64,000 nucleotides of DNA from Syntrophales bacterium (GTDB lineage: Bacteria > Desulfobacterota > Syntrophia > Syntrophales > PHBD01). Location of the stretch: positions 4,032,001 through 4,096,000 of the forward strand of contig OY764159.1 of the NCBI GenBank assembly GCA_963668175.1, read 5' to 3'. Under the pieces are notes generated by a model that saw nothing but the letters and a program-made list of their open reading frames with translations, was not told the origin of the DNA and did no database searches. Position 1 is the first letter of the stretch. Every line of letters begins with the position of its first letter. The translations under genes were made by a program, and so were the position numbers. Below, in pieces: positions 1,471 to 22,953 of the stretch.

Positions 1471-3117
1471 ATGGCAGCTTATTTCAGTCCCCTATCCAAC
1501 GAGGATAAAGCCAAATTCAATTTCATCAACAAAGAGAACCTCGAATTCCTGATGAACCGTTACAACAAGGTGAACCGCTGGGTGATTGCCGATATGATCC
1601 GGCGAAGCGCCTATCACTATCCCGACAAGAAGGCCCTGATCTTTGGTGACCAGGTTCTGACTTATAGAGAGCTCGAAGCGGCGTGCAACCGGACGGCCAA
1701 CGCCCTCCTCGGCCTGGGCGTGAAGAAATACGACCGCGTGGCCATCCTCGCCCATAATACGGTCGATCATGTGCTGACCTGGATGGGATGCGCCAAGATC
1801 GGCGCCATCTACCTGGCCGTCAACTACCTCCTCCGGGGCAAAGACATATCCTACTGCATCAATCACTCGGAAAGTAAGGTGTTCATCATCGAGGACGCTC
1901 TCTATGACCTCATGAAAGATGTCATAGACGACATGCCCACCGTAAAGACTTTCATCTGGTCGCGGCAGGGTGCCAGCAAGCCCCCCGTCAGCGATCGGTT
2001 TCTCGATTTCGAACCATGGTACAAAAAGGGATCGGACAGCGAACCGGATGCCGAACTGCATATCGAAGAACCCTGCCAGATGACCTACACCAGCGGAACG
2101 GAATCGCTGCCGAAGGGCGTCATCATCAGCAATCAGGCCCTCATGGCCGAATATATGGGCTGTATCATCGACGGGCAGTACGACGAGGACGACATCAATA
2201 TCAACGCCCTACCCATCTACCATTGCGCCCAGCGCGACGTTTTCATGAACCCCATCTTCTGGGTGGGGGGAACGAACGTCCTCATGGCACCCGATATCGG
2301 CATGATCCTGAAGAACATCCAGGACTACAAGGCAACGATGTTCTTTGCGCCGCCGACGGTCTGGATCGGCATGCTCCGTCATCCCGATTTCACCAAGTAC
2401 GACCTCTCCAGCCTGAAAAAATGCTATTACGGGGCATCCATCATGCCCGTCGAAATCCTGAAGGAGATCATGGAAAAGGTGCCAGGGGCCAGGATTTACA
2501 ACTACTACGGACAGACGGAACTGGCACCGTACCATACCATTCTCAAAGCGAAAGACGCCCTCAAGAAACTCGGCTCGGCAGGTCTGGGCGGCCTCAATAT
2601 GGAAACCCGCCTGGAAGACGACGACGGCAAACCGATCGGTCAGCCCGAAATCCCCGGCGAGATCTGCGGCAAAGGCCCTCACGCCCTCATCATGTATTTC
2701 AAAGAGCCGGACAAGACCGATGCCGCCATGAAGGGAGGGTGGTTCCACTCGGGCGATATCGGTGTGATGGACGAGGACCGCTACATCACCGTCGCCGATC
2801 GCAAAAAGGACATGATCAAGACCGGCGGCGAGAACGTGCCGACCCGCGAGGTGGAGGAGGCCATTTATCTCGATAAACGCGTCCAGGAAGTGGCGGTCAT
2901 CGGCCTGCCCGATCCGAAATGGGTGGAAAAAGTGGCGGCGATCATCGTTGCCAAGCCGAACACAACAATTACCGAAGAGGAGATCATTACCCATTGCCGC
3001 AAGGAGTTGGCGGGATTCAAAGTTCCCAAGAAGGTGATCTTTGTCGATCAACTCCCCAAAACCCCGACGGGCAAAATTTTGAAGCGGGAGATGCGGGTCA
3101 TGTACAAGGATAAATAA
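1471..3117 (+). CDS. Acyl-CoA synthetase (fatty acid-CoA ligase, AMP-forming)
   Basis: YTSGTESLPKG AMP-binding loop, YGQTE, GWFHSGD, KTPTGKILK; start moved to ATG 1471 behind strong RBS taaggagg. Confidence 0.93.
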   Translation: MAAYFSPLSNEDKAKFNFINKENLEFLMNRYNKVNRWVIADMIRRSAYHYPDKKALIFGDQVLTYRELEAACNRTANALLGLGVKKYDRVAILAHNTVDHVLTWMGCAKIGAIYLAVNYLLRGKDISYCINHSESKVFIIEDALYDLMKDVIDDMPTVKTFIWSRQGASKPPVSDRFLDFEPWYKKGSDSEPDAELHIEEPCQMTYTSGTESLPKGVIISNQALMAEYMGCIIDGQYDEDDININALPIYHCAQRDVFMNPIFWVGGTNVLMAPDIGMILKNIQDYKATMFFAPPTVWIGMLRHPDFTKYDLSSLKKCYYGASIMPVEILKEIMEKVPGARIYNYYGQTELAPYHTILKAKDALKKLGSAGLGGLNMETRLEDDDGKPIGQPEIPGEICGKGPHALIMYFKEPDKTDAAMKGGWFHSGDIGVMDEDRYITVADRKKDMIKTGGENVPTREVEEAIYLDKRVQEVAVIGLPDPKWVEKVAAIIVAKPNTTITEEEIITHCRKELAGFKVPKKVIFVDQLPKTPTGKILKREMRVMYKDK

Positions 3118-8817: not shown

Positions 8818-10341
8818 ATGGAAACCTTTACTCTCGCGGCCATCAGCCTGACGATAGCCATTTCCCTGACCATCAACAAGAAAAGGGACGGCCTGCAACT
8901 CTCTTTTGCCGCGCTCTGTTTGGCTGTTTTTTTTCACAAAAGCGGGGTTTTCTTCCATGACTTGCTGAAAAACCCTTTCTGGAAAATGATCGCCGATATG
9001 GGTCTCGTCGCGACGGCACCGCTCGCAATCCGTTTTACATCGGCCCTGTCGAACGGACTGAGTTTCCTCACCCCCAAATGGACCGTATCCGCGACCTTCA
9101 TGGCCGTTCTGCTGTCCGCGGCCACCTTCACGCCCCTTGACCGCTGGCTTTATATGGACACGGTTCTCCGGACATTTTCATTTGGTATGCTGGGTCTCTG
9201 TTATCTCGCACTGCTTCATTATACAAAATCCAAAGTGGCCGGTATCGAAAGATGGAGGTTTATTTATCTGTCGACAGCCTGTACGGTCTCAGCCGTCTTG
9301 AGCCTTCTCGATTTGTTCCATTACTTCGGTTATAATTTTCCCCGTTTGTCGGATATCGTCATTGCCGGTCTCCTCTATTTTGTATTCATGTTCATCACCC
9401 ATCACCGTCTTATAGAAATTCAGGAGTTGATGGCCCGAGCCCTCTTTATCGCCATTCTAACGATGTTTGCGGCGATTGCCATCTATTCCGTTATCGGACT
9501 GTTCGGCATGGGCGTCACCCTGCCGTTCACCCCGGTTCTGCTGGCTTCCTTTATCATCGTCATTTCCATCAGCCCTTTCCGGGAAATTCTGGAGAAACTG
9601 TTCGGCAAACTTTACCCGGACAGCAAAGACCTGTTCACGTCCATGTTTACCTTTGACGAAAAAATCGAGCGCGAAAAATCCGTGATGCTGGAGGAAATGG
9701 CTCCCGTCCTTGCTCACGAGATCCGCAACCCCCTAGGATCCATCAAAGGTGCGGCGCAGTATCTGCGCTCGGAGGCAACGACCGAGGAAAACGAGAAACT
9801 CCTGGACGTCATCATTGAAGAGGTCAACAGATTGAACAGTGTTGTTTCGCAGTTCCTCGACTTTGCGAAACCTTATACGTTGACGCTGAAGCCGACGGAT
9901 ATCAACCAAATCATCGAAAAGGCCGTTTCGATCATCAAGGCCAATGACATATCCGGAAAAATAACCATAGAGAGAGAACTTCGGCCTCACCTGCCGCCGA
10001 TCATGGCAGACCAGGAACAGATCATCCAGGTGATCCTGAATATCGCCTTCAACGGCATTGAAGCCATGCCGGAAGGCGGAACGCTCACATTCAGAACGAC
10101 CAAGATCGCAAGCGATGTAGGCGACGCCATAGGAATCTCCATCCGCGACACGGGCGCAGGCATCAAGAAGGAGGAGATGATCAACATTTTCAAGCCGTTT
10201 TTTACGACCAAGGAACGCGGCGTAGGGCTTGGATTGGCCATCTGCCGGAAAATCATCAAGACCCATGGCGGCCATATCCGCGCCAAGTCCATCGTCGGAC
10301 AGGGAAGCATCTTTTATATCAGATTGGGCACGGCCTATTGA
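8818..10341 (+). CDS. Membrane sensor histidine kinase (NtrB-like transmitter)
   Basis: Multiple N-terminal TM helices; H-box LAHEIRNPL; N-box NGIEAM; DTGAGI, FFTTK, GVGLGL. Confidence 0.95.
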   Translation: METFTLAAISLTIAISLTINKKRDGLQLSFAALCLAVFFHKSGVFFHDLLKNPFWKMIADMGLVATAPLAIRFTSALSNGLSFLTPKWTVSATFMAVLLSAATFTPLDRWLYMDTVLRTFSFGMLGLCYLALLHYTKSKVAGIERWRFIYLSTACTVSAVLSLLDLFHYFGYNFPRLSDIVIAGLLYFVFMFITHHRLIEIQELMARALFIAILTMFAAIAIYSVIGLFGMGVTLPFTPVLLASFIIVISISPFREILEKLFGKLYPDSKDLFTSMFTFDEKIEREKSVMLEEMAPVLAHEIRNPLGSIKGAAQYLRSEATTEENEKLLDVIIEEVNRLNSVVSQFLDFAKPYTLTLKPTDINQIIEKAVSIIKANDISGKITIERELRPHLPPIMADQEQIIQVILNIAFNGIEAMPEGGTLTFRTTKIASDVGDAIGISIRDTGAGIKKEEMINIFKPFFTTKERGVGLGLAICRKIIKTHGGHIRAKSIVGQGSIFYIRLGTAY

Positions 10342-10385
10342 GACGCGTCCTTGACACGACAAACATTCCATAATAGATCAAACCT

Positions 10386-11753
10386 ATGAAAAATATCCTC
10401 GTAGTTGACGATGAATTAAATATGCGCCTCGTTCTGAAGGCCATGCTGAAGAAGGAGGGATACGACGTCGTCCTGGCATCCGACGGCGCCGAGGCTCTGG
10501 ACATTCTCAAAAAGGAGGAGATAAGCATTGTGGTGTCCGATCTGAAGATGCCCAGGCTCGACGGAATGGAACTCCTGGAGAGGGTATCCCAATCGTGGCC
10601 GTCCATACCGGTCATCATCATCACGGCCCACGGCACGATCGCTACTGCGGTCGATGCCTTGAAAAAAGGCGCTTTCGATTACATCACAAAACCCTTCGAG
10701 CAGGACGAACTGAAGAACATCATCTTTAAAGCCATCAAGACCAAGACCTTAAACGAAGGCGAAGCCCTCTTCCGGCCGGACGATATCGAACGTTACGGCA
10801 TTATCGGCAACAGCAAAGTCATGCTGGAGACATACGATGTCATTAAAAAGGTCGCCCCGACGACAACGACGGTGATGATTACGGGAGAGACGGGAACGGG
10901 AAAGGAACTTATCGCCAATGCCGTTCATGTGAACAGTCCCCGGCGTCAGAACCCCTTCATCAAGATCAACTGTGCCGCTATCCCGGAAAATCTCATGGAG
11001 AGCGAACTCTTCGGCTTCGAGAAAGGGGCTTTCACCGGCGCCGTCGTCGGCAAACCGGGGAAATTCGAACTGGCCCATAAGGGAACCCTGTTTCTGGACG
11101 AAGTGGGAGAATTATCCAAGGAGATGCAGGTCAAAATCCTGACCGTGATCCAGGACCATCAATTCGAGCGGGTCGGCGGAATCCGCACCATCAAAGTCGA
11201 TGTGAGGCTGATTACCGCGACCAATCGCAATCTGCGCCAGGACGTGAAGAACGGAACCTTCCGGGAAGATCTTTTCTACAGGCTCAATGTTTTCCCCATT
11301 CACGTTCCCCCGCTCAGAGAGCGAAGAGAGGATATCCCGCTTCTCGTCGACTATTTTCTGGACAAATTCAACAAGAAGCTGAACCGCTCCGTCAAATCGA
11401 TCGAACCGGCCGTCATGGACATCCTGGAACAGTACGATTGGCCAGGAAATATCCGGGAGTTGGAGAATTTCACGGAAAGACTCGTGCTTATGGCCCAGGG
11501 AGAAACTATCGGGCCCCAGGATATCCCCGGTGAATGGAAAACAGCCGCGGAATCGTCGATCCTGGTTAAATCGGACGACCGGAAGACAGCCCTGAAAGAC
11601 TGGATCAAAAACCAGACGGAAGAAATAGAAAAACAGATGATCACAAAAGTCCTCGACGAATGCGGAGACAATGTGACCAGGGCGGCCAAGCAACTGGGCA
11701 TGAGTAGAAAGGGACTCCAACTCAAGATGATTAAGTATGACCTCCGGAAATAG
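10386..11753 (+). CDS. Sigma54-dependent response regulator (NtrC family)
   Basis: REC (SDLKMP), AAA+ with GETGTGKE and GAFTGA, WPGNIREL, C-terminal Fis-type HTH. Confidence 0.96.
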   Translation: MKNILVVDDELNMRLVLKAMLKKEGYDVVLASDGAEALDILKKEEISIVVSDLKMPRLDGMELLERVSQSWPSIPVIIITAHGTIATAVDALKKGAFDYITKPFEQDELKNIIFKAIKTKTLNEGEALFRPDDIERYGIIGNSKVMLETYDVIKKVAPTTTTVMITGETGTGKELIANAVHVNSPRRQNPFIKINCAAIPENLMESELFGFEKGAFTGAVVGKPGKFELAHKGTLFLDEVGELSKEMQVKILTVIQDHQFERVGGIRTIKVDVRLITATNRNLRQDVKNGTFREDLFYRLNVFPIHVPPLRERREDIPLLVDYFLDKFNKKLNRSVKSIEPAVMDILEQYDWPGNIRELENFTERLVLMAQGETIGPQDIPGEWKTAAESSILVKSDDRKTALKDWIKNQTEEIEKQMITKVLDECGDNVTRAAKQLGMSRKGLQLKMIKYDLRK

Positions 11754-13642: not shown

Positions 13643-14557
13643 ATGCCCAGTCGGTATCTTTATTCTGCTGATGATATCAAGAAAGCCTATGAGCAGACCG
13701 CCGACCACGTCCGGACAAGAAATATCATCACACAATATTCCATAAATCAAAGCGATATCAGAGATATAGCTCTTGAGGGCCTTGCTCTGTCATGGGCGAG
13801 GCATATCCTGGAATTGGGTTGCGGCTATGGAGCTTTTACGAATAAACTCGCCGGTCGTCTTCATCATGATGCGGAAATTACCGGAATCGACATGGTCGCC
13901 GAAAACGGGCCCCATTTTTATGCCGTTGTGGACGCCCTGGGGTATCGCTGCTCGTTCATTCACGGCAACGCATCTCTGATCAAACGCATGGCAACAGACA
14001 GCTTCGATCTCGTTATTGCGAGTTATTCCCTCTATTTCTTTCCCCAGTTGATAGAGGATATCGCCCGTATTCTCAACCCCGAAGGCGTCTTCGTCGTCAT
14101 AACCCATTCCCGGCACTCGCTCGTCGAGATTCTTGAATTCATTCCCAAGTGTCTGACTAAAATGGGCCTCGGCCGTCCGGGAAGAACCCGCCTGGCCCGC
14201 CTATTCGACGTCATCTCCATGGAAAACGGGCATAGGAAGCTCGCCCTCTATTTCGACAGGATAGAAACCGTCCTCTATAAGAACAGATTGATGTTCTCTC
14301 GGGAAGACATCAAGGACTGCCTGGACTACATCATGAAAAAAGATACCCTTCTCTTCAAGGATATCGAAGATAAGTATCCTCTGCAAAAAGAAACTATACG
14401 CTCACATTTCTACAATGACCTGAATCAATACATCATGGAAAAGGGATTCCTGTCCGTGACGAAAGACGATGCTATTTTCCGCTGTTACCATCCTTCAATC
14501 AGGCAGCGCAGAAGACCGAAGCGAAAGAAGAAACCAGAAGTCGTCTCGAATCAATAG
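13643..14557 (+). CDS. Class I SAM-dependent methyltransferase
   Basis: ILELGCGYG motif I, ITGID, FDLVIA, ILNPEG. Confidence 0.85.
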   Translation: MPSRYLYSADDIKKAYEQTADHVRTRNIITQYSINQSDIRDIALEGLALSWARHILELGCGYGAFTNKLAGRLHHDAEITGIDMVAENGPHFYAVVDALGYRCSFIHGNASLIKRMATDSFDLVIASYSLYFFPQLIEDIARILNPEGVFVVITHSRHSLVEILEFIPKCLTKMGLGRPGRTRLARLFDVISMENGHRKLALYFDRIETVLYKNRLMFSREDIKDCLDYIMKKDTLLFKDIEDKYPLQKETIRSHFYNDLNQYIMEKGFLSVTKDDAIFRCYHPSIRQRRRPKRKKKPEVVSNQ

Positions 14558-14884
14558 TATTAATGAGGACATGCCGGAACGGATTTGTATTACAATATTA
14601 TCTTCGAATCTTATTCGATAGTTAAGTTCTATCTCTGCTTTTCATAGTACTTTACTATTTGATGACTTTGGGGTGATACAACTTTTGTGATACAGGCAAT
14701 ATTTTAGTTATCCTCATATGTTAACGTGTATGTACGGTCAAAAGATGGGCCACGGACCATGGATGAGCTTGTTATCGTCCCGGGAAATATGATATTGTTT
14801 ATCATCATTGCCGGATGATATTACAATATCGAAATCGCGGCAGCAACGCAACGAACGCAGGACGGCTGCCTGACAGAATGTGAC

Positions 14885-17269
14885 ATGCGGGAAACACTGA
14901 CAAAAAGTACTTCCGAAAACCATCGCTACCACATCGGATGGACGGAAGACGCCTATCAAGGATCTTGCATATGTACCTGGCCGGATGGCAGCCGATACGA
15001 AGGTCAGATTGAACATGAACACTTTCACGGCCAAGGAAAATTCACATGGCCGGACGGCAGCAGTTACGAAGGAGAATGGGAACTTGACCTTCCGCATGGT
15101 CAGGGTACATTCACTTCTGCTGACGGTAAGGAATTATCCGGCGAATGGATCCTTGGTCATGCCGTTAAACCCAAACCCACCGAAGCTGAATTAGCACAAC
15201 AAAAGGCTGAAGAGGAAGCCAGGCTAAAGGCCGAAGAAGAGGCACGCCTCAAAGCCGAAGAGGAAGCACGGCTCAAGGCCGAGGAGGAAGCACGGCTCAA
15301 AGCCGAAGAGGAAGCCCGCCTCAAAGCTGAAGAGGAAAGCAGACGCAAGGCCGAAGAAGAGGCACGGCTCAAAGCCGAAGAAGAAGCCAGGCTTAGAGCT
15401 GAAGAGGAAGCCAGACTCAAGGCTGAAGAAGAGGCACGGCTCAGAGCTGAAGAGGAAGCCAGACTCAAGGCTGAAGAAGAGGCACGGCTCAGAGCTGAAG
15501 AGGAAGCCAGACTCAAGGCCGAGGAAGATGCCCGCCTCAGAGCCGAAGAGGAAGCCCGCCTCAAAGCTGAAGAGGAAAGCAGACGCAAGGCCGAAGAAGA
15601 GGCACGGCTCAAAGCCGAAGAAGAAGCCAGGCTTAGAGCTGAAGAGGAAGCCAGGCTCAAGGCCGAAGAAGATGCCCGCCTCAGAGCTGAAGAGGAAGCC
15701 AGGCTCAAGGCCGAAGAAGATGCCCGCCTCAGAGCTGAAGAGGAAGCCAGACTCAAGGCCGAGGAAGATGCCCGCCTCAAAGCCGAAGAAGAAGCCCGCC
15801 TCAAAGCTGAAGAAGAAGCCCGCCTCAAAGCTGAAGAAGAGGCACGGCTCAAAGCCGAAGAAGAAGCCCGCCTCAAAGCTGAAGAAGAGGCACGGCTCAA
15901 AGCCGAAGAAGAAGCCCGCCTCAGAGCTGAAGAGGAAGCCAGGCTCAAAGCCGAGGAAGAAGCGCGACTCAGGGCTGAAGAGGAAGCCAGACTCAAGGCC
16001 GAAGAAGAAGCCCGCCTCAGAGCTGAAGAGGAAGCCAGACTCAAAGCCGAAGAAGAAGCCCGCCTCAGAGCTGAAGAGGAAGCCAGACTCAAAGCCGAAG
16101 AAGAAGCCCGAATCAAGGCTGAAGAGGAAGCCGGACGCAAGGCCGAAGAAGAAGCCCGAATCAAGGCTGAAGAGGAAGCCGGACGCAAGGCCGAAGAAGA
16201 AGCGCGAACCAAGGCTGAAGAGGAAGCCAGACGCGAGGCCGAGGAGGAGGCACGGTTCAAAGCTGAAGAGGAAGCCAGACGCAAGGCCGAAGAAGAAGCC
16301 CGCCTCAGAGCTGAAGAGGAAGCCAGACGCGAGGCCGAGGAGGAGGCACGGCTCAAAGCCGAAGAGGAAGCCAGACGCAAAGCCGAAGAAGAAGCCCGAC
16401 TCAGAGCTGAAGAGGAAGCCAGACGCGAGGCCGAGGAGGAGGCACGGCTCAAAGCCGAAGAGGAAGCCAGACGCAAAGCCGAAGAAGAAGCCCGACTCAA
16501 GGCCGAAGAAGAGGTACGGCTCAAAGCCGAAGAAAAAGCCAGACTCAAGGCCGAGGAGGAAGCCCGAATCAAGGCTGAAGAAAAGGCACAGACTAAGACA
16601 GAGGAACAACCCCCTTCCGAAGACCAGGCAGCCATGATGCCCGGTCAGGGTTCTATCAATCTACCAGACGGCAGCAGATATATTGGAGAACTGAAAAAAG
16701 GAAATCCCCACGGTCAGGGCATCATGACCTACCCAACTGGTGAGAGATACCTCGGTGATTGGAAAAATGGACGGAGAGACGGTCAAGGCAGCCTGATTTT
16801 ACCCGACGGCTCAACCTATACAGGCCGCTGGAAAAAAGACAAAAGAGACGGCGAAGGCACCATGACCTTTGCAGACGGCAAGAAATACATTGGAGAATGG
16901 GGCGACGATCAATACAATGGGACAGGCACAGAAACAACCGTCGATGGTAAAAAGTATGAAGGTCAATTCCAGGACGGAAAGTACCATGGTGAAGGAACCC
17001 TGACCCTCCCGGATGGCAAGAAATACGTGGGACAATTCCTTAACGGTTTTTCAAACGGCAAAGGAGTACTGGCTTTTAACGAAGGCCGTTACGAAGGAGA
17101 GTTCTTAAACAACAAATACCATGGTTACGGGACTCTGACTATGAAAGACGGCAGACGATATACCGGTTTTCTGGAAAATGGTCTGCCGCATGGACAGGGC
17201 ACCATGCTTCTAGCCAACGGCAAGAAATATATAGGGGAATTTATTAACGGCCGTTTCGTTGAGAAATAA
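14885..17269 (+). CDS. MORN-repeat protein with long central charged alpha-helical repeat
   Basis: About 2-3 N-terminal and about 8 C-terminal YxGx(W/F)xxxxxxGxG MORN repeats flanking about 464 aa of (K/R)AEEEARL repeats. Confidence 0.88.
15203..16594 (+). repeat. Coding tandem repeat, 58 x 24 bp
   Basis: Unit like aaggccgaagaagaagcccgcctc; first unit starts 15203, last starts 16571 (57 x 24 later), so register is kept. Confidence 0.93.
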
Positions 17270-17490
17270 CCGACCTAAGTCCGTTGAAGTCGATATTGGA
17301 TCAGAACATATTAAAGGGCTGCTGTAAGAAACCCGCCTAATATGATACTGCGAGACCGTCACGAGGTTTGATTTGATGACGTCGTCACAAAGCAGATTGA
17401 ATACCGGGCAAACAAGCGGCATTTCGACTATCTCTGGGCGGAAACCGCGCTGACTCAACTACAGCCCATCTTTATCCGGATAATCGCCGC

Positions 17491-18075
17491 ATGAGAGACC
17501 AGTTAAAACAGATCATACAGAACGAAGAAAAACGGAGCCTCGTTAATTTCGAATGGTCCGACAACCTCTACGAAGGGGAAGGATACTGCACATTGCCCGA
17601 CGGAGGAACATATAACGGACAATGGAAGGAAGGCCATTTTGAAGGGACGGGCACATATACTTGGGCCGACGGGACGAAATACGAAGGCGAGTGGCGTAAC
17701 AACCTGCCTGAAGGTATGGGTATCATGACACTCCCTGATTCAAGTCGTTATGACGGGGAATGGAAGGAGGGCTACGCTGAAGGGGAAGGAACGGAGACCC
17801 ATCCGGACGGATCGGTTTACAAGGGCTCATGGAAAAGGGGAGCCAAGGACGGCTCCGGTCACATGACCTATTCCGACGGCAAACAATATACCGGGGAATG
17901 GAAGGATGACAAGTGCCACGGGCAAGGAACCCTGATCTTCACCGACGGTTCCAGCTACAAGGGGGAATGGCAGGACAACAACATCACGGGACGGGGTACG
18001 CTCACATTCTCCGACGGGAAGAAATATCTCGGGGAATGGAAAGACGACGAGTTTGACGTCATCGAAATCTTATGA
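17491..18075 (+). CDS. MORN-repeat protein
   Basis: Six full 23-aa MORN repeats such as YEGEWRNNLPEGMGIMTLPDSSR, plus a partial one. Confidence 0.9.
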   Translation: MRDQLKQIIQNEEKRSLVNFEWSDNLYEGEGYCTLPDGGTYNGQWKEGHFEGTGTYTWADGTKYEGEWRNNLPEGMGIMTLPDSSRYDGEWKEGYAEGEGTETHPDGSVYKGSWKRGAKDGSGHMTYSDGKQYTGEWKDDKCHGQGTLIFTDGSSYKGEWQDNNITGRGTLTFSDGKKYLGEWKDDEFDVIEIL

Positions 18076-18120
18076 TCGCTTTCCCTGTTCCGCTCGACGT
18101 TACGTTATCCTCAACTGGAC

Positions 18121-18150
18121 AGGCTCGGGCTCATTCCCGGGCTTTTTGTT
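18121..18150 (+). terminator. Intrinsic terminator after MORN genes
   Basis: aggctcggg-ctcatt-cccgggctt stem followed by tttgtt, between convergent genes. Confidence 0.6.
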
Positions 18151-18158
18151 CCATCCTT

Positions 18159-19357
<1,199 letters not shown>

Positions 19358-21538: not shown

Positions 21539-22315
21539 TTAGTGATGATTCCGATAGTGCGCCGCTCTCGCATTGGCCTCGGTGATCAACTTCCTGGCGA
21601 TCTTATAGACCAGCCAGACCGGTCCCGATAAACTATATCCGACAAAAAAAGTAAAGATCGTAATTTCCGGCTCCATGATGACGATGATCAGTATAACAAT
21701 AATGGCTACCAACGCCCGAAACGGTTTCCGGGCAAAGAAATTAAGATCCTTAAAGCTGTAATACTTGATACTGCTGACCATAAAGAGGGACAGCATGGCC
21801 ACCGCTACCAGCATCACCGGATGATTGAAGGTCCCATCCCCATGGAGATGATGGAAGAGAACCATAGTCGCGATCACGGAAGCGGCACCCGGTATCGGAA
21901 GACCGTTGAACACCTTGCTTTCGATAATGCCGATCTGGATATTGAATCTGGCCAGGCGCAACGCCCCGCATGTCACAAAGAGGAATGCCGCCCCCCAACC
22001 CCATTTCCCAAAGGGAGCCAAAGCCCACGTATAGGCAAGTATGGCCGGGGCGACACCGAAAGCCACCAGATCTGACAAAGAATCGAATTCCGCACCGAAC
22101 TTGCTCGCTGTATTGGTTATGCGGGCAATTCTCCCATCGAGGCCGTCGAGGACAAGGGCGACCAAAATGGCTATGGCCGCGACGTAATACTGGCCTTTCA
22201 TCGAGCTGATAATGGAATAAAAACCGCTGAAGAGGCTTGCGGCCGTGAAGAGATTGGGAAGAACATAAATTCCCTTCTTCATCCCGTCTTTCGTCAATCG
22301 ATGCTGCTTGTTCAT
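21539..22315 (-). CDS. pssA: CDP-diacylglycerol--serine O-phosphatidyltransferase
   Basis: LPNLFT, DGLDGRIAR...FGAEFDSLSD CDP-alcohol phosphotransferase motif, LRLARFN. Confidence 0.95.
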   Translation of the reverse strand: MNKQHRLTKDGMKKGIYVLPNLFTAASLFSGFYSIISSMKGQYYVAAIAILVALVLDGLDGRIARITNTASKFGAEFDSLSDLVAFGVAPAILAYTWALAPFGKWGWGAAFLFVTCGALRLARFNIQIGIIESKVFNGLPIPGAASVIATMVLFHHLHGDGTFNHPVMLVAVAMLSLFMVSSIKYYSFKDLNFFARKPFRALVAIIVILIIVIMEPEITIFTFFVGYSLSGPVWLVYKIARKLITEANARAAHYRNHH

Positions 22316-22953
22316 GACAGACCTCCTAAGGGCGTCTCCCCTGCCCTGACCCGGTCACCCACTTTAACGACAACCATCGAATCGGAAGGCAGATATACTT
22401 CAACGCGGGAACCAAAGCGGATGAGGCCGAACCGTTCACCTTTGCTGACCCCCATTCCTTCCTTTATCCAGCACACAATCCTTCGGGCAATCAAGCCGGC
22501 TATCTGGACGGCCATGATATCCCTGCCGTCGTCGGTGCGGATGACGACGGAATTTCTTTCATTGTTATCGGACGCCTTGTCGAGGTTCGCGGAAAGAAAC
22601 AACCCCTCATGGTAGACGATGGAACGAACTTGCCCCGCATAGGGAGCACGATTGACGTGTACATTAAATACATTCATGAAAATACTGATCTTCTTGAACC
22701 GGCCCACGATCAAATCGTTCCGTTCCACATCTTCGATGCGGATAACCTTGCCGTCCGCAGGAGAGATGACCATCTTAGGCACATCCGGCGTTTGTCTTTC
22801 CGGATTTCGAAAGAACCATATGACGAACATCGTGATGCATGAAAGTCCCATCGCCGACCAAACGGCCCCCAGAACGGCCGCGGATACGGAAAATATCGCG
22901 AGCGGCAGGATGAAAGGGTACCCCTCCCGGGCTATGATGCTATCGTGTTGCAT
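22312..22953 (-). CDS. psd: Phosphatidylserine decarboxylase proenzyme
   Basis: FFRNPER, SPADG, NVHVNRAP, RFGSRV self-cleavage site. Confidence 0.95.
   Translation of the reverse strand: MQHDSIIAREGYPFILPLAIFSVSAAVLGAVWSAMGLSCITMFVIWFFRNPERQTPDVPKMVISPADGKVIRIEDVERNDLIVGRFKKISIFMNVFNVHVNRAPYAGQVRSIVYHEGLFLSANLDKASDNNERNSVVIRTDDGRDIMAVQIAGLIARRIVCWIKEGMGVSKGERFGLIRFGSRVEVYLPSDSMVVVKVGDRVRAGETPLGGLS

What the first reader, a model, noticed from the sequence alone, without database searches (positions are those of the whole stretch)
14885..17269. Dumbbell protein: MORN cap, 464-aa charged helical rod, MORN cap
Seen: two MORN blocks separated by 58 octapeptides (K/R)AEEEARL with no Pro and almost no Gly, and no signal peptide or TM helix. 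Known: E/K/R-rich i,i+3/4 patterns form stable single alpha-helices at about 0.15 nm per residue, and MORN repeats are interaction surfaces in eukaryotic scaffolds such as junctophilins and parasite MORN1. Inference: a cytoplasmic spacer, tether or ruler about 70 nm long with a binding module at each end, possibly a bacterial scaffold or cytoskeletal element. I do not know a characterised bacterial protein with this layout. This is the best candidate for a new system in the window.
Basis: partly seen in the sequence, partly recalled or inferred. Interest (0 to 1): 0.75.

Follow-up and report, generated by a model that had tools for sequence, protein, structure and literature searches.

The report
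MORN-capped charged-helix tether protein
This is a real bacterial gene for a protein with a small binding module at each end of a very long, highly charged helix. It belongs to an undescribed two-gene family confined to one order of anaerobic bacteria, and its cellular job is still unknown.

Summary
ORF 14885-17269 (+) encodes 794 aa: an N-terminal MORN cap, 58 octads of (K/R)AEEEARL (residues 107-570, no Pro, 2 Gly) and a 9-repeat C-terminal MORN cap, with no membrane or signal segment.

The rod has the charge pattern of a stable single alpha-helix and no heptad or hendecad seam. No fold could be run.

Orthologues were found in 56 of 301 sampled genomes of the same order, and in none of about 387 genomes sampled from the rest of the phylum. 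In all 25 complete loci a rod-less MORN paralogue (about 200 aa) follows on the same strand.

The caps are conserved. The spacer is not: 364-1271 aa, always net acidic where charge was computed. It is mostly E/A/R/K-rich helix, but Pro/Glu-rich disordered in one clade and Q/L-rich helical in another. That points to selection for a long, extended, acidic connector.

Best reading: a cytoplasmic, semi-flexible two-headed tether (70 nm contour, about 40 nm mean span) working with its small paralogue. Partners and function are unknown.

Long charged rods with other end domains are common in metagenomes. This is a new variant built from known parts.

The parts
14799..14827 (+). Promoter-like site (TTATCA-17-TACAAT, 9 of 12) 58 nt upstream of the start codon. 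A weak consensus match only.
14885..17269 (+). Gene for the 794-aa two-headed MORN protein (stop codon included).
   Evidence: The start agrees with orthologue N-termini in alignment A2.
14885..15202 (+). N cap, residues 1-106: a conserved pre-MORN segment, 3-4 MORN repeats, and a short Pro-containing linker (KPKPTE).
   Evidence: 27-sequence alignment A2 has 16 invariant columns.
15203..16594 (+). Rod, residues 107-570: 58 octads (K/R)AEEEARL. Predicted single alpha-helix, net charge -53.
16595..16642 (+). Short non-repeat linker with two Pro ([16 protein letters not shown]) between the rod and the C cap.
16643..17266 (+). C cap, residues 587-794: nine MORN repeats. The closest solved relative is MORN1 (repeats 7-15).
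17491..18075 (+). Downstream gene for a 194-aa all-MORN protein. Its residues 5-97 are homologous to the whole N cap, so it is a rod-less paralogue. It is conserved directly downstream in all 25 complete orthologous loci.
18121..18144 (+). Terminator-like hairpin (9 pairs, 6 G-C, T-rich tail) after the small gene. No such site on the + strand lies between the two genes.

Best explanation
The gene encodes a cytoplasmic two-headed connector. Two MORN beta-sheet modules act as protein-binding heads: a 3-4-repeat N cap and a 9-repeat, MORN1-like C cap. They are joined through short Pro-containing hinges by a 464-residue, strongly acidic, salt-bridged single alpha-helix.

This helix would hold the heads apart by tens of nanometres (70 nm contour, about 40 nm rms) while staying bendable and extensible, as a leash or spring rather than a rigid ruler.

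The protein works together with the co-transcribed small MORN protein, a rod-less paralogue with the same N-cap-type head. That protein either binds the caps or competes for the same target.

Selection acts on the caps and on the spacer being long, extended and acidic, not on the spacer's sequence or fold class.

Shown: the anatomy, the charge pattern, the conservation, the gene pairing and the spacer turnover. Inferred: helicity and monomeric state, cytoplasmic location, binding by the caps, and the tether role. Targets are unknown.
For: Anatomy and lack of TM or signal segment. The same holds in 25 of 25 orthologues (max KD19 0.95, no internal stops).

Single-helix features:
- 63% E+K+R and 24% A, with 0 Pro.
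- 236 opposite-charge i,i+4 pairs against about 92 in shuffles, and 9 same-charge pairs against 97.
- One unbroken segment, 105-563, above 0.25 (mean 0.46) in my simplified score normalised to EEEEKKK.
- Hydrophobic spectral power of 0.1, 0.2 and 0.0 at periods 3.5, 3.67 and 3.6 (random expectation about 1).
- The only regular hydrophobic residue, Leu at octad position 8, is Lys in the genus-g2 orthologue and Arg/Leu in the G054 orthologue.
- Designed AEEEXXX repeats, which share the AEEE core, form single helices in vitro for the Lys-rich versions (PMC5347031, abstract).

Purifying selection on the octad: 160 synonymous against 44 non-synonymous codon differences from the consensus unit.

Family:
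- An N-cap match in 9 of 9 genomes of the family.
- A C-cap orthologue (42-62% identity, E<=1e-45) in 56 of 301 genomes of the order, 24 of 72 genera.
- 2 of 401 in a phylum-wide sample, both from this order.

Gene pair:
- The small MORN gene lies on the same strand, 17-198 nt after the aligned C cap, in 25 of 25 loci.
- No other neighbour was shared beyond a genus, or beyond G001.
- A terminator-like hairpin follows only the small gene.
- hhalign of the small protein against the N cap: probability 99.9, E 5.6e-37, over the entire N cap.

Spacer turnover with conserved caps:
- Between-cap length is 364-1271 aa, median 732, and net charge is negative in all 20 spacers where it was computed.
- Three classes are seen: E/A/R/K helical, Pro/Glu-rich, and Q/L/A/E-rich.
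- On the C-cap tree the last two are single clades (100/100 each).

Parallel and precedents:
- TolA/TonB domain II switches between helix-rich and proline-rich forms among orthologues while keeping its reach (PMC12204202, passages).
- MORN repeats are protein-protein modules that dimerise (PMC7725318, abstract and section 34).
- The C-cap profile matches MORN1 over its full length, E 8e-53.

Cap charges: N cap median -5, C cap median 0, small protein median -9. There is no basic face for lipid or nucleic-acid binding.
Against: - No structure prediction or complex prediction could be run, so helicity, monomeric state and any cap-cap or cap-small-protein contact are untested.
- The SAH score is my own simplification, not Waggawagga or FT_CHARGE.
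- Arg-rich designed SAHs aggregated in vitro (PMC5347031, abstract), and this rod has more Arg (78) than Lys (44).
- At 464 residues it is well beyond the 40-200 residues typical of described SAHs (PMC5347031, introduction). An unbroken helix of this length is therefore an extrapolation.
- A net charge of -53 may destabilise it at low ionic strength.
- If length mattered as a ruler it should be conserved, yet it varies 3.5-fold.
- In the window the two genes are 221 nt apart, more than in any relative, so co-transcription here is less certain.
- No expression data and no partner are known.
- One closed genome (G078) keeps only a truncated 333-aa form without N cap or small gene, so the module is dispensable there.
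Confidence: 0.5

Rival explanations
1. Split MORN domain with a looped-out spacer. The N cap and C cap (in cis, or head-to-tail in trans) join into one continuous MORN sheet, as junctophilin repeats 1-6 and 7-8 do across their disordered joining region. The long acidic insert would then be an entropic bristle, a polyanionic surface or an interaction hub rather than a distance-setter. If the joining is in trans, the result is head-to-tail chains or antiparallel pairs.
For: - Junctophilin MORN repeats are interrupted by a long low-complexity joining region (PMC9169776, passages). That the split repeats nevertheless form one sheet, which this rival needs, is recalled and is not in the passages I saw.
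- The small paralogue looks like an N cap fused directly to further repeats, so an N-cap-plus-repeats sheet is a viable fold.
- In genus g3 the spacer is Pro/Glu-rich and disordered, which allows cis closure.
- With L/Lp of about 4.6, even the helical form could close on itself (inference).
- Spacer length is not conserved.
Against: - In most lineages the spacer is a long charged helix of 364-1271 aa, which is costly if it is only a loop.
- The N cap has its own conserved pre-MORN N-terminus and a C-terminal hinge, as an independent module would.
- No contact prediction could be run.
Confidence: 0.2
2. Coiled-coil cytoskeletal element. The rods pair or bundle into dimers or filaments, like bacterial coiled-coil-rich proteins, with MORN caps as end-to-end connectors. 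The protein would be a polymer-forming scaffold.
For: - One clade (f21) has Q/L/A/E-rich spacers with 67-68-aa repeats, and a member carries a precomputed tropomyosin Pfam hit.
- MORN1 forms tail-to-tail dimers and higher oligomers (PMC7725318, abstract).
- The rod has Ala at every fourth residue plus a Leu every eighth.
Against: - In the window's rod there is no power at 3.5 or 3.67 residues (0.1 and 0.2).
- A period of 8 moves Leu 80 degrees round the helix per unit, so no straight seam forms.
- Leu is replaced by Lys or Arg in orthologues with the same octad.
- Only 10% of residues are large hydrophobics, and net charge is -53.
- No orthologue spacer, including those of the Q/L clade, shows a strong global heptad signal (2.9, 1.2 and 3.6 in that clade, at most 4.1 in any). 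That test is weak for stuttered coils.
Confidence: 0.12
3. Exported or surface length-variable stalk (periscope-like, or a TolA-like envelope spanner) that projects a binding head away from the cell.
For: - The rod scores above the trusted cut-off of the NCBIfam TolA model (116 bits against 59.45).
- Array length varies between relatives.
- An unrelated protein with a signal peptide carries a 508-aa rod of the same type (P0345).
- A secreted MORN-disordered-MORN protein exists elsewhere (P0194).
Against: - No signal peptide, TM helix or lipobox in the window protein or in any of 25 orthologues.
- The TolA match is confined to profile positions 120-233, the helical domain II.
- The neighbours are not tol-pal genes.
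- The small partner also lacks any export signal.
Confidence: 0.04
4. Assembly artefact or a functionless runaway repeat expansion.
For: - No read or contig bridges the whole array.
- Short-read assemblies of two relatives break inside their arrays (G001).
Against: - The frame stays open through 58 units and links two conserved caps.
- The units have diverged mostly at synonymous sites, 160 against 44.
- Read-derived pieces match with no differences, and their depth fits the assembled copy number.
- The genome is one 4.57-Mb contig.
- 25 orthologues all carry long uninterrupted spacers.
Confidence: 0.02

Closest known systems
MORN1 of Trypanosoma, Toxoplasma and Plasmodium (PDB 6T4R, 6T6Q, 6T69, 6T4D; PMC7725318)
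   Same: - The C-cap profile aligns to MORN1 repeats 7-15 over its full length (E 8e-53 to 4e-44).
- Both are nine consecutive 23-residue MORN repeats at a protein's C-terminus, with no strongly basic net charge (the C cap is near neutral, the other MORN parts are acidic).
- MORN1 is a cytoskeletal scaffold that dimerises tail-to-tail.
   Different: - MORN1 is all-MORN (15 repeats), with no rod and no second head.
- It is eukaryotic.
- Its dimer interfaces differ even among the three species (section 34), so dimerisation cannot be transferred by sequence.
Junctophilins (PDB 7RXE, 7RW4; PMC9169776)
   Same: - The MORN repeats are split by a long low-complexity region.
- A long alpha-helix is proposed as the spacer that sets a gap.
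- The MORN groove binds a partner peptide.
- The overall role is a tether between two structures.
   Different: - Junctophilins end in a transmembrane anchor, and their helix packs along the MORN sheet.
- Here there is no TM segment.
- The helix is about 5 times longer, and each end carries a MORN head.
Stable single alpha-helix (SAH / ER/K) domains: myosin VI and X, INCENP, CAF-1 KER, designed AEEEXXX repeats (PMC5347031, PMC4183817; PMC4571873 and PMC10335832 seen as listing abstracts only)
   Same: - E/K/R-rich composition.
- A dense i,i+3 and i,i+4 salt-bridge pattern with no hydrophobic seam.
- It links two functional modules.
- The octad shares the AEEE core of the designed heptads.
   Different: - 464 residues here, and between-cap spacers of up to 1271 aa in a relative, against the typical 40-200.
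- An 8-residue rather than 7-residue unit, with a regular Ala/Leu component.
- Net acidic.
- Bacterial.
- Helicity is not measured.
TolA / TonB domain II (TIGR02794; PMC12204202)
   Same: - The composition is close enough to pass the TolA model's cut-off.
- It is a bacterial long connector whose orthologues switch between helix-rich and proline-rich forms while keeping reach, the same switch seen in this family.
   Different: - No N-terminal TM helix and no TolA/TonB C-terminal domain.
- No tol-pal or exb context.
- Cytoplasmic by prediction.
- A 'TolA' label on such proteins would be wrong.
Other giant charged-helix rod proteins of uncultured bacteria (top hits; scan notes e1-4639094, e1-1071365, e1-1319928)
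   Same: - E/A/R/K rods of 200-500 aa flanked by globular or repeat modules. 39 of 120 top hits have a segment of 200 aa or more, and 3 of 120 have 400 aa or more.
- All are uncharacterised.
   Different: - Their end modules are HEAT, PDZ, REC-GGDEF, DUF4388, carboxypeptidase-regulatory-like or TPR.
- None of the 120 carries MORN.
- Some are exported.

Membership tests
MORN repeat proteins (Pfam PF02493) | Tandem 23-residue repeats with the YxGxW ... GxG consensus, scoring above the Pfam gathering cut-off. | tested here: met
   193.1 bits against a cut-off of 22.5, in 8 stretches. 14 MORN matches in the genome, all in these two genes.
MORN repeat proteins (Pfam PF02493) | Similarity to solved MORN beta-hairpin arrays. 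| tested here: met
   The C-cap profile against the PDB gives MORN1 at E 8e-53, plus RSPH1, junctophilin and MORN4. This is by sequence only. No fold was run.
Stable single alpha-helix (SAH / CSAH) domain | Rich in E, K and R, with dense opposite-charge pairs at i,i+3 and i,i+4. | tested here: met
   63% E+K+R. 236 i,i+4 and 130 i,i+3 opposite-charge pairs, against about 92 and 91 in shuffles. One segment, 105-563, lies above 0.25 in my own normalised score.
Stable single alpha-helix (SAH / CSAH) domain | No hydrophobic seam (no heptad or hendecad a/d pattern). | tested here: met
   Spectral power of 0.1 at 3.5 and 0.2 at 3.67. Leu at octad position 8 rotates 80 degrees per unit and is Lys or Arg in orthologues.
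Stable single alpha-helix (SAH / CSAH) domain | Monomeric and highly helical in solution, with non-cooperative melting. | not testable with these tools
   Needs CD, AUC or SAXS. Structure prediction was not accepted.
TolA (NCBIfam TIGR02794) | N-terminal transmembrane anchor and C-terminal TolA domain III, with the match spanning the whole model. | tested here: not met
   The match covers only profile positions 120-233 of 362. No hydrophobic segment. The second TolA model scores 111.9 against a cut-off of 213.
TolA (NCBIfam TIGR02794) | tol-pal operon context. | tested here: not met
   The neighbours are a methyltransferase, an HD protein, an aminotransferase, CoaD-like, RsmD-like, Asd, and PssA/Psd-like genes.
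Junctophilin-type membrane tether | C-terminal transmembrane anchor plus MORN repeats. | tested here: not met
   No TM segment in the window protein or in 25 orthologues. The resemblance is by analogy only.
Coiled-coil-rich cytoskeletal proteins | Heptad or hendecad hydrophobic periodicity over the rod. | tested here: not met
   for the window protein. The test is inconclusive for the Q/L-rich relatives (power 1.2-3.6).
Cornifin/SPRR (PF02389) and DUF2345 (PF10106) | Homology beyond composition. | tested here: inconclusive
   Both hits lie wholly inside the repeat array, and PF02389 recurs on unrelated E/A/R/K rods. I read them as compositional matches.
Known anti-phage defence proteins (PADLOC) | A match to any PADLOC model. 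| tested here: not met
   0 families for both proteins.

The most novel reading that the evidence does not exclude
This family is a previously unrecognised intracellular scaffold system of one order of anaerobic bacteria. A two-headed MORN tether carries by far the longest natural single alpha-helices known (70 nm here, about 190 nm in a relative with a 1271-aa spacer). With its rod-less paralogue, it positions or spaces two cellular structures tens of nanometres apart. Evolution has repeatedly swapped the physical class of its spacer (salt-bridged helix, Pro/Glu-rich extended chain, Q/L-rich helical repeats) while keeping both heads. That would make it a natural experiment on what a molecular spacer needs.
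Probability: 0.25. Interest if true: 0.8.

Novelty: new variant of a known kind. Interest (0 to 1): 0.55.

Why it matters
- Bacterial MORN proteins are very numerous (103,179 clusters at 50% identity match the C-cap profile at E<=0.001), yet my literature searches found almost none of them studied.
- Single alpha-helices have been studied almost only in eukaryotic proteins of 40-200 residues.
- This family offers a tractable, soluble, lineage-wide pair of genes in which to test three questions: whether a helix of 460 to more than 1200 residues stays single and helical, what MORN heads bind in bacteria, and why a long acidic connector is kept while its sequence and fold class change freely.
- It also flags a systematic annotation error: such rods pass the TolA model's cut-off.

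Tried and rejected
- **Structure prediction.** Complex prediction (C cap, N cap, small protein) was not available. No fold or binding test exists.
- **Expression.** No RNA holder is listed for the locus.
- **Raw-read run X10.** 0 reads laid, so it is no test.
- **Run X5 (organism B).** Only partial pieces and one odd joint. Not interpreted.
- **Rfam on 14400-18300.** Only sub-threshold snoRNA matches inside the array, which I read as chance.
- **PADLOC.** Nothing.
- **ESM Atlas.** Only generic MORN clusters, at scores of 0.83 or below.
- **Searches with the caps.** These were swamped by multi-repeat MORN proteins. Screening 344 retrieved proteins for cap / low-complexity spacer / cap found only the orthologues P0005, P0034 and P0039 (with P0031, which lacks an N cap), plus one unrelated secreted MORN-disordered-MORN protein (P0194).
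- **Neighbour clustering.** It was polluted by alternative-frame ORFs. It showed no flanking gene shared beyond a genus. tblastn of the window's neighbours found synteny only in G001.
- **Global heptad spectra of orthologue spacers.** Uninformative.
- **MORN1 dimer interface.** I did not map its residues onto the C cap, because the interfaces differ among the three solved species.
- **One literature hit for MORN + Syntrophus.** It was an author name in a reference list.
- **Motif screen gap.** My screen missed the N cap of L043. L043 is therefore absent from the spacer statistics but included.
Full report
**1. Observation**

The window holds one uninterrupted ORF at 14885..17269 on the + strand, 794 aa. 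Reading octads from residue 107 gives 58 units up to residue 570. Of these, 34 match [KR]AEEEARL exactly, 18 differ at one position, 5 at two and 1 at three.

The rod is E 171, A 113, R 78, K 44 and L 42, with no Pro and two Gly, and a net charge of -53. Tandem Repeats Finder sees a 48-nt period (two octads) with 28.7 copies at 15206-16582.

Pfam finds MORN repeats on both sides (E 5e-59, 8 stretches). There are 3-4 repeats in residues 1-106 and nine in residues 587-794. Short Pro-containing linkers join the rod to each cap. The most hydrophobic 19-residue window averages 0.25 on the Kyte-Doolittle scale, so there is no signal peptide or membrane helix.

The long ORFs in other frames and on the opposite strand of the array are by-products of the repeat. 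Only the + frame joins two conserved domains.

**2. Is the array real?**

- The 58 units comprise 35 distinct 24-nt sequences.
- Relative to the consensus unit there are 160 synonymous and 44 non-synonymous codon differences, which is the signature of an old array under purifying selection at the protein level.
- The longest exact internal DNA repeat is 114 nt.
- The genome is a single 4.57-Mb contig.
- Short contigs from two public runs cover all 30 bins of 14600-18100 with no differing letters, indels or joints. Both runs are from one sample, probably the assembly's own, so this is not independent.
- Flanking contigs run into the array to 15330 and from 16470. Inside it only 70-86-nt pieces exist, and none bridges the array.
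- For the six listed array pieces, depth relative to the flanks is 1.7-1.9 where the assembly holds the piece twice and 0.6-1.3 where it holds it once.

Gross collapse or expansion is therefore unlikely, but the exact number of units lacks independent proof.

**3. Physical nature of the rod**

Opposite charges sit at i,i+4 in 236 places, against about 92 in shuffles. Same charges sit there in 9 places, against 97. A simplified helical-net score of my own, normalised to an EEEEKKK repeat as Waggawagga normalises its score (PMC5812594, passages), stays at or above 0.25 in one unbroken segment, 105-563, with a mean of 0.46.

Large hydrophobic residues are 10% of the rod. They show no power at 3.5, 3.6 or 3.67 residues (0.1, 0.0, 0.2; random expectation about 1), only at 8 and its harmonic 4. 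A Leu every eighth residue moves 80 degrees round a helix per unit and cannot form a seam.

Two orthologues with the same octad replace that Leu. The genus-g2 genome has (K/R)KKAEEEA, and the G054 genome alternates RRKAEEEA with RLKAEEEA.

Designed 98-residue AEEEXXX repeats, which share the AEEE core, form single helices when Lys-rich, although Arg-rich versions aggregated (PMC5347031, abstract). That caveat applies here, because Arg outnumbers Lys.

With 0.15 nm per residue and the published persistence length of about 15 nm (PMC5347031, introduction), the rod has a 70-nm contour and an rms end-to-end distance of about 40 nm. It is a semi-flexible leash, and by analogy a low-force spring (PMC4183817, passages), not a rigid ruler.

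Helicity and monomeric state were not tested. The structure tool did not accept jobs.

**4. The family**

MORN occurs in only two genes of this genome: this one and the 194-aa gene 221 nt downstream.

All 9 of 9 genomes of the window's family match the N cap. Seven genomes of one genus hold complete orthologues of 701-856 aa. In the remaining genus the gene is split over two contig ends inside its octad array.

Distribution of the C cap at E<=1e-45:

| Sample | Genomes with a match | Notes |
|---|---|---|
| Order | 56 of 301 | 35 of 201 good-quality genomes; 24 of 72 genera; 42-62% identity; patchy by family (for example 16/22, 7/7, 0/36, 2/78) |
| Phylum | 2 of 401 | Both from this order; none of about 387 genomes outside it |

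The only named close record is an uncultured Syntrophaceae MAG.

Of 20 further loci fetched:
- 18 hold complete genes.
- One has masked bases.
- One closed genome has a truncated 333-aa form without an N cap or a downstream partner.

In all 25 complete loci the protein is an uninterrupted N cap / spacer / C cap without a hydrophobic segment. A small MORN gene follows on the same strand, 17-198 nt after the aligned C cap (median 42).

No other neighbour is shared beyond a genus, apart from synteny with the genus-g2 genome. In the window a terminator-like hairpin follows the small gene and none lies between the two genes.

The small protein's residues 5-97 align with the entire N cap, including its pre-MORN start (hhalign probability 99.9, E 5.6e-37). 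The rest aligns with C-cap repeats. It is a rod-less paralogue.

**5. What is conserved and what is not**

Mean column identity is 52% for the N cap, 67% for the C cap and 53% for the small protein. The spacers cannot be aligned. Between-cap length is 364-1271 aa, median 732, and net charge is negative in every spacer where I computed it (-18 to -76 in 17 order-level spacers and -67 to -105 in three of genus g3).

| Spacer class | Where | Features |
|---|---|---|
| E/A/R/K-rich helical | 14 of the 17 order-level spacers analysed | Repeat periods of 8/16, 46/92, 32/39/71 or 53/106/114 residues; 26-61 opposite-charge i,i+4 pairs per 100 residues; 0-6 Pro; 45-95% of residues above my SAH cut-off |
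| Q/L/A/E-rich helical | One family | 67-68-residue repeats; score 0.09 |
| Pro/Glu/Ala-rich, disordered-type | Genus g3 | 18-31% Pro; net -67 to -105; score 0.04-0.05 in the three examined |

On a maximum-likelihood tree of the C caps, the last two classes are each one clade with full support. The Q/L clade sits beside an E/A/R/K group (100/99). The tree is rooted at the midpoint for drawing only, and the window's own branch is long.

So both heads and the partner gene are held constant while the connector changes sequence, length and physical class. [quoted passage not shown]

**6. Mechanism**

My best reading (confidence 0.5) is a cytoplasmic two-headed tether. Two MORN protein-binding heads are kept tens of nanometres apart by a long, acidic, extended connector, and they act with a rod-less paralogue that shares the N-cap head.

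MORN repeats are documented as protein-protein and dimerisation modules rather than lipid binders (PMC7725318, abstract and section 34). The C cap matches MORN1 repeats 7-15 over its full length. The caps are acidic to neutral, not basic.

Rivals:
- A junctophilin-like split MORN domain with a looped-out spacer, or head-to-tail assembly (0.2).
- A coiled-coil filament former (0.12).
- An exported stalk (0.04).
- An artefact (0.02).

**7. Comparison with what is known, and novelty**

The protein is a MORN protein by every sequence test. It meets the sequence criteria of an SAH domain. It is not TolA, although its rod passes the TolA model's cut-off (no TM segment, no domain III, no tol-pal context). 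It is not a junctophilin, because it has no membrane anchor.

Literature searches for bacterial MORN proteins, SAH domains in prokaryotes, and MORN with Syntrophus or Desulfobacterota returned no description of this layout. Supplementary files were not searched.

The rod as such is not unique. A search with it returned 4388 proteins. None of the top 120 carries MORN, but many have HEAT, PDZ, REC-GGDEF, DUF4388 or other end domains. Of those 120, 39 have an SAH-like segment of at least 200 aa and 3 have one of at least 400 aa. Earlier notes of this scan describe similar giant charged rods with other caps in other phyla (unchecked notes).

I therefore rate this a new variant of known kinds: real, conserved and uncharacterised, interesting for SAH biophysics and bacterial cell organisation, but with its function still open.

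Noticed in passing
L049 (G078:C1:43100-50000), ORF 2034-3035 on the - strand: One closed genome of the Q/L-spacer genus keeps only a 333-aa form: a short helical stretch plus a C cap. It has no N cap, and in the one reading frame I read downstream no small MORN gene follows. An unrelated gene lies directly upstream.
   Followed up: partly
L026 and L027 (G001 contigs C80 and C59): The genus-g2 orthologue is split over two contig ends, both inside a (K/R)KKAEEEA octad array. Short-read assemblies break on these rods, so family counts in draft genomes are underestimates.
   Followed up: partly
L019-L025 (genus g3 orthologues), just before the C cap: Within the otherwise variable Pro/Glu-rich spacer there is a conserved basic stretch followed by an acidic-hydrophobic motif (consensus ...RRKAxPxVEMEEAPAxPPVExPSDLFxDLG...). 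It could be a short linear binding motif. It is absent from the window protein.
   Followed up: no
P0194 (527 aa, metagenome protein): An unrelated protein with an N-terminal signal peptide has 3 MORN repeats, a disordered spacer of about 260 aa and 7 MORN repeats. This is an exported version of the same plan.
   Followed up: no
P0345 (1235 aa, metagenome protein): A signal-peptide protein with a carboxypeptidase-regulatory-like domain carries a 508-aa rod of near-identical [15 protein letters not shown] repeats. One source labels it 'membrane protein involved in colicin uptake' (TolA), which appears to be a compositional mislabel.
   Followed up: partly
window 15432-16136 (run X5, organism B): A contig of a related organism joins these two array positions with 37 other letters in between, at much higher depth than its other pieces. 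It could be a relative's shorter array or an unrelated repeat.
   Followed up: no
L023 and L029 (G008 contigs C272 and C156): One draft genome (580 contigs, 5% contamination) holds two diverged copies of the large gene. This may be strain mixture or a duplication.
   Followed up: no
window 8818-11753 (+) and 21539-22953 (-): Surrounding genes are ordinary. They include a histidine kinase with a sigma-54-dependent response regulator upstream, and PssA-like and Psd-like phospholipid genes, Asd, RsmD-like, CoaD-like and an aminotransferase downstream. There is no mobile-element or defence context.
   Followed up: partly
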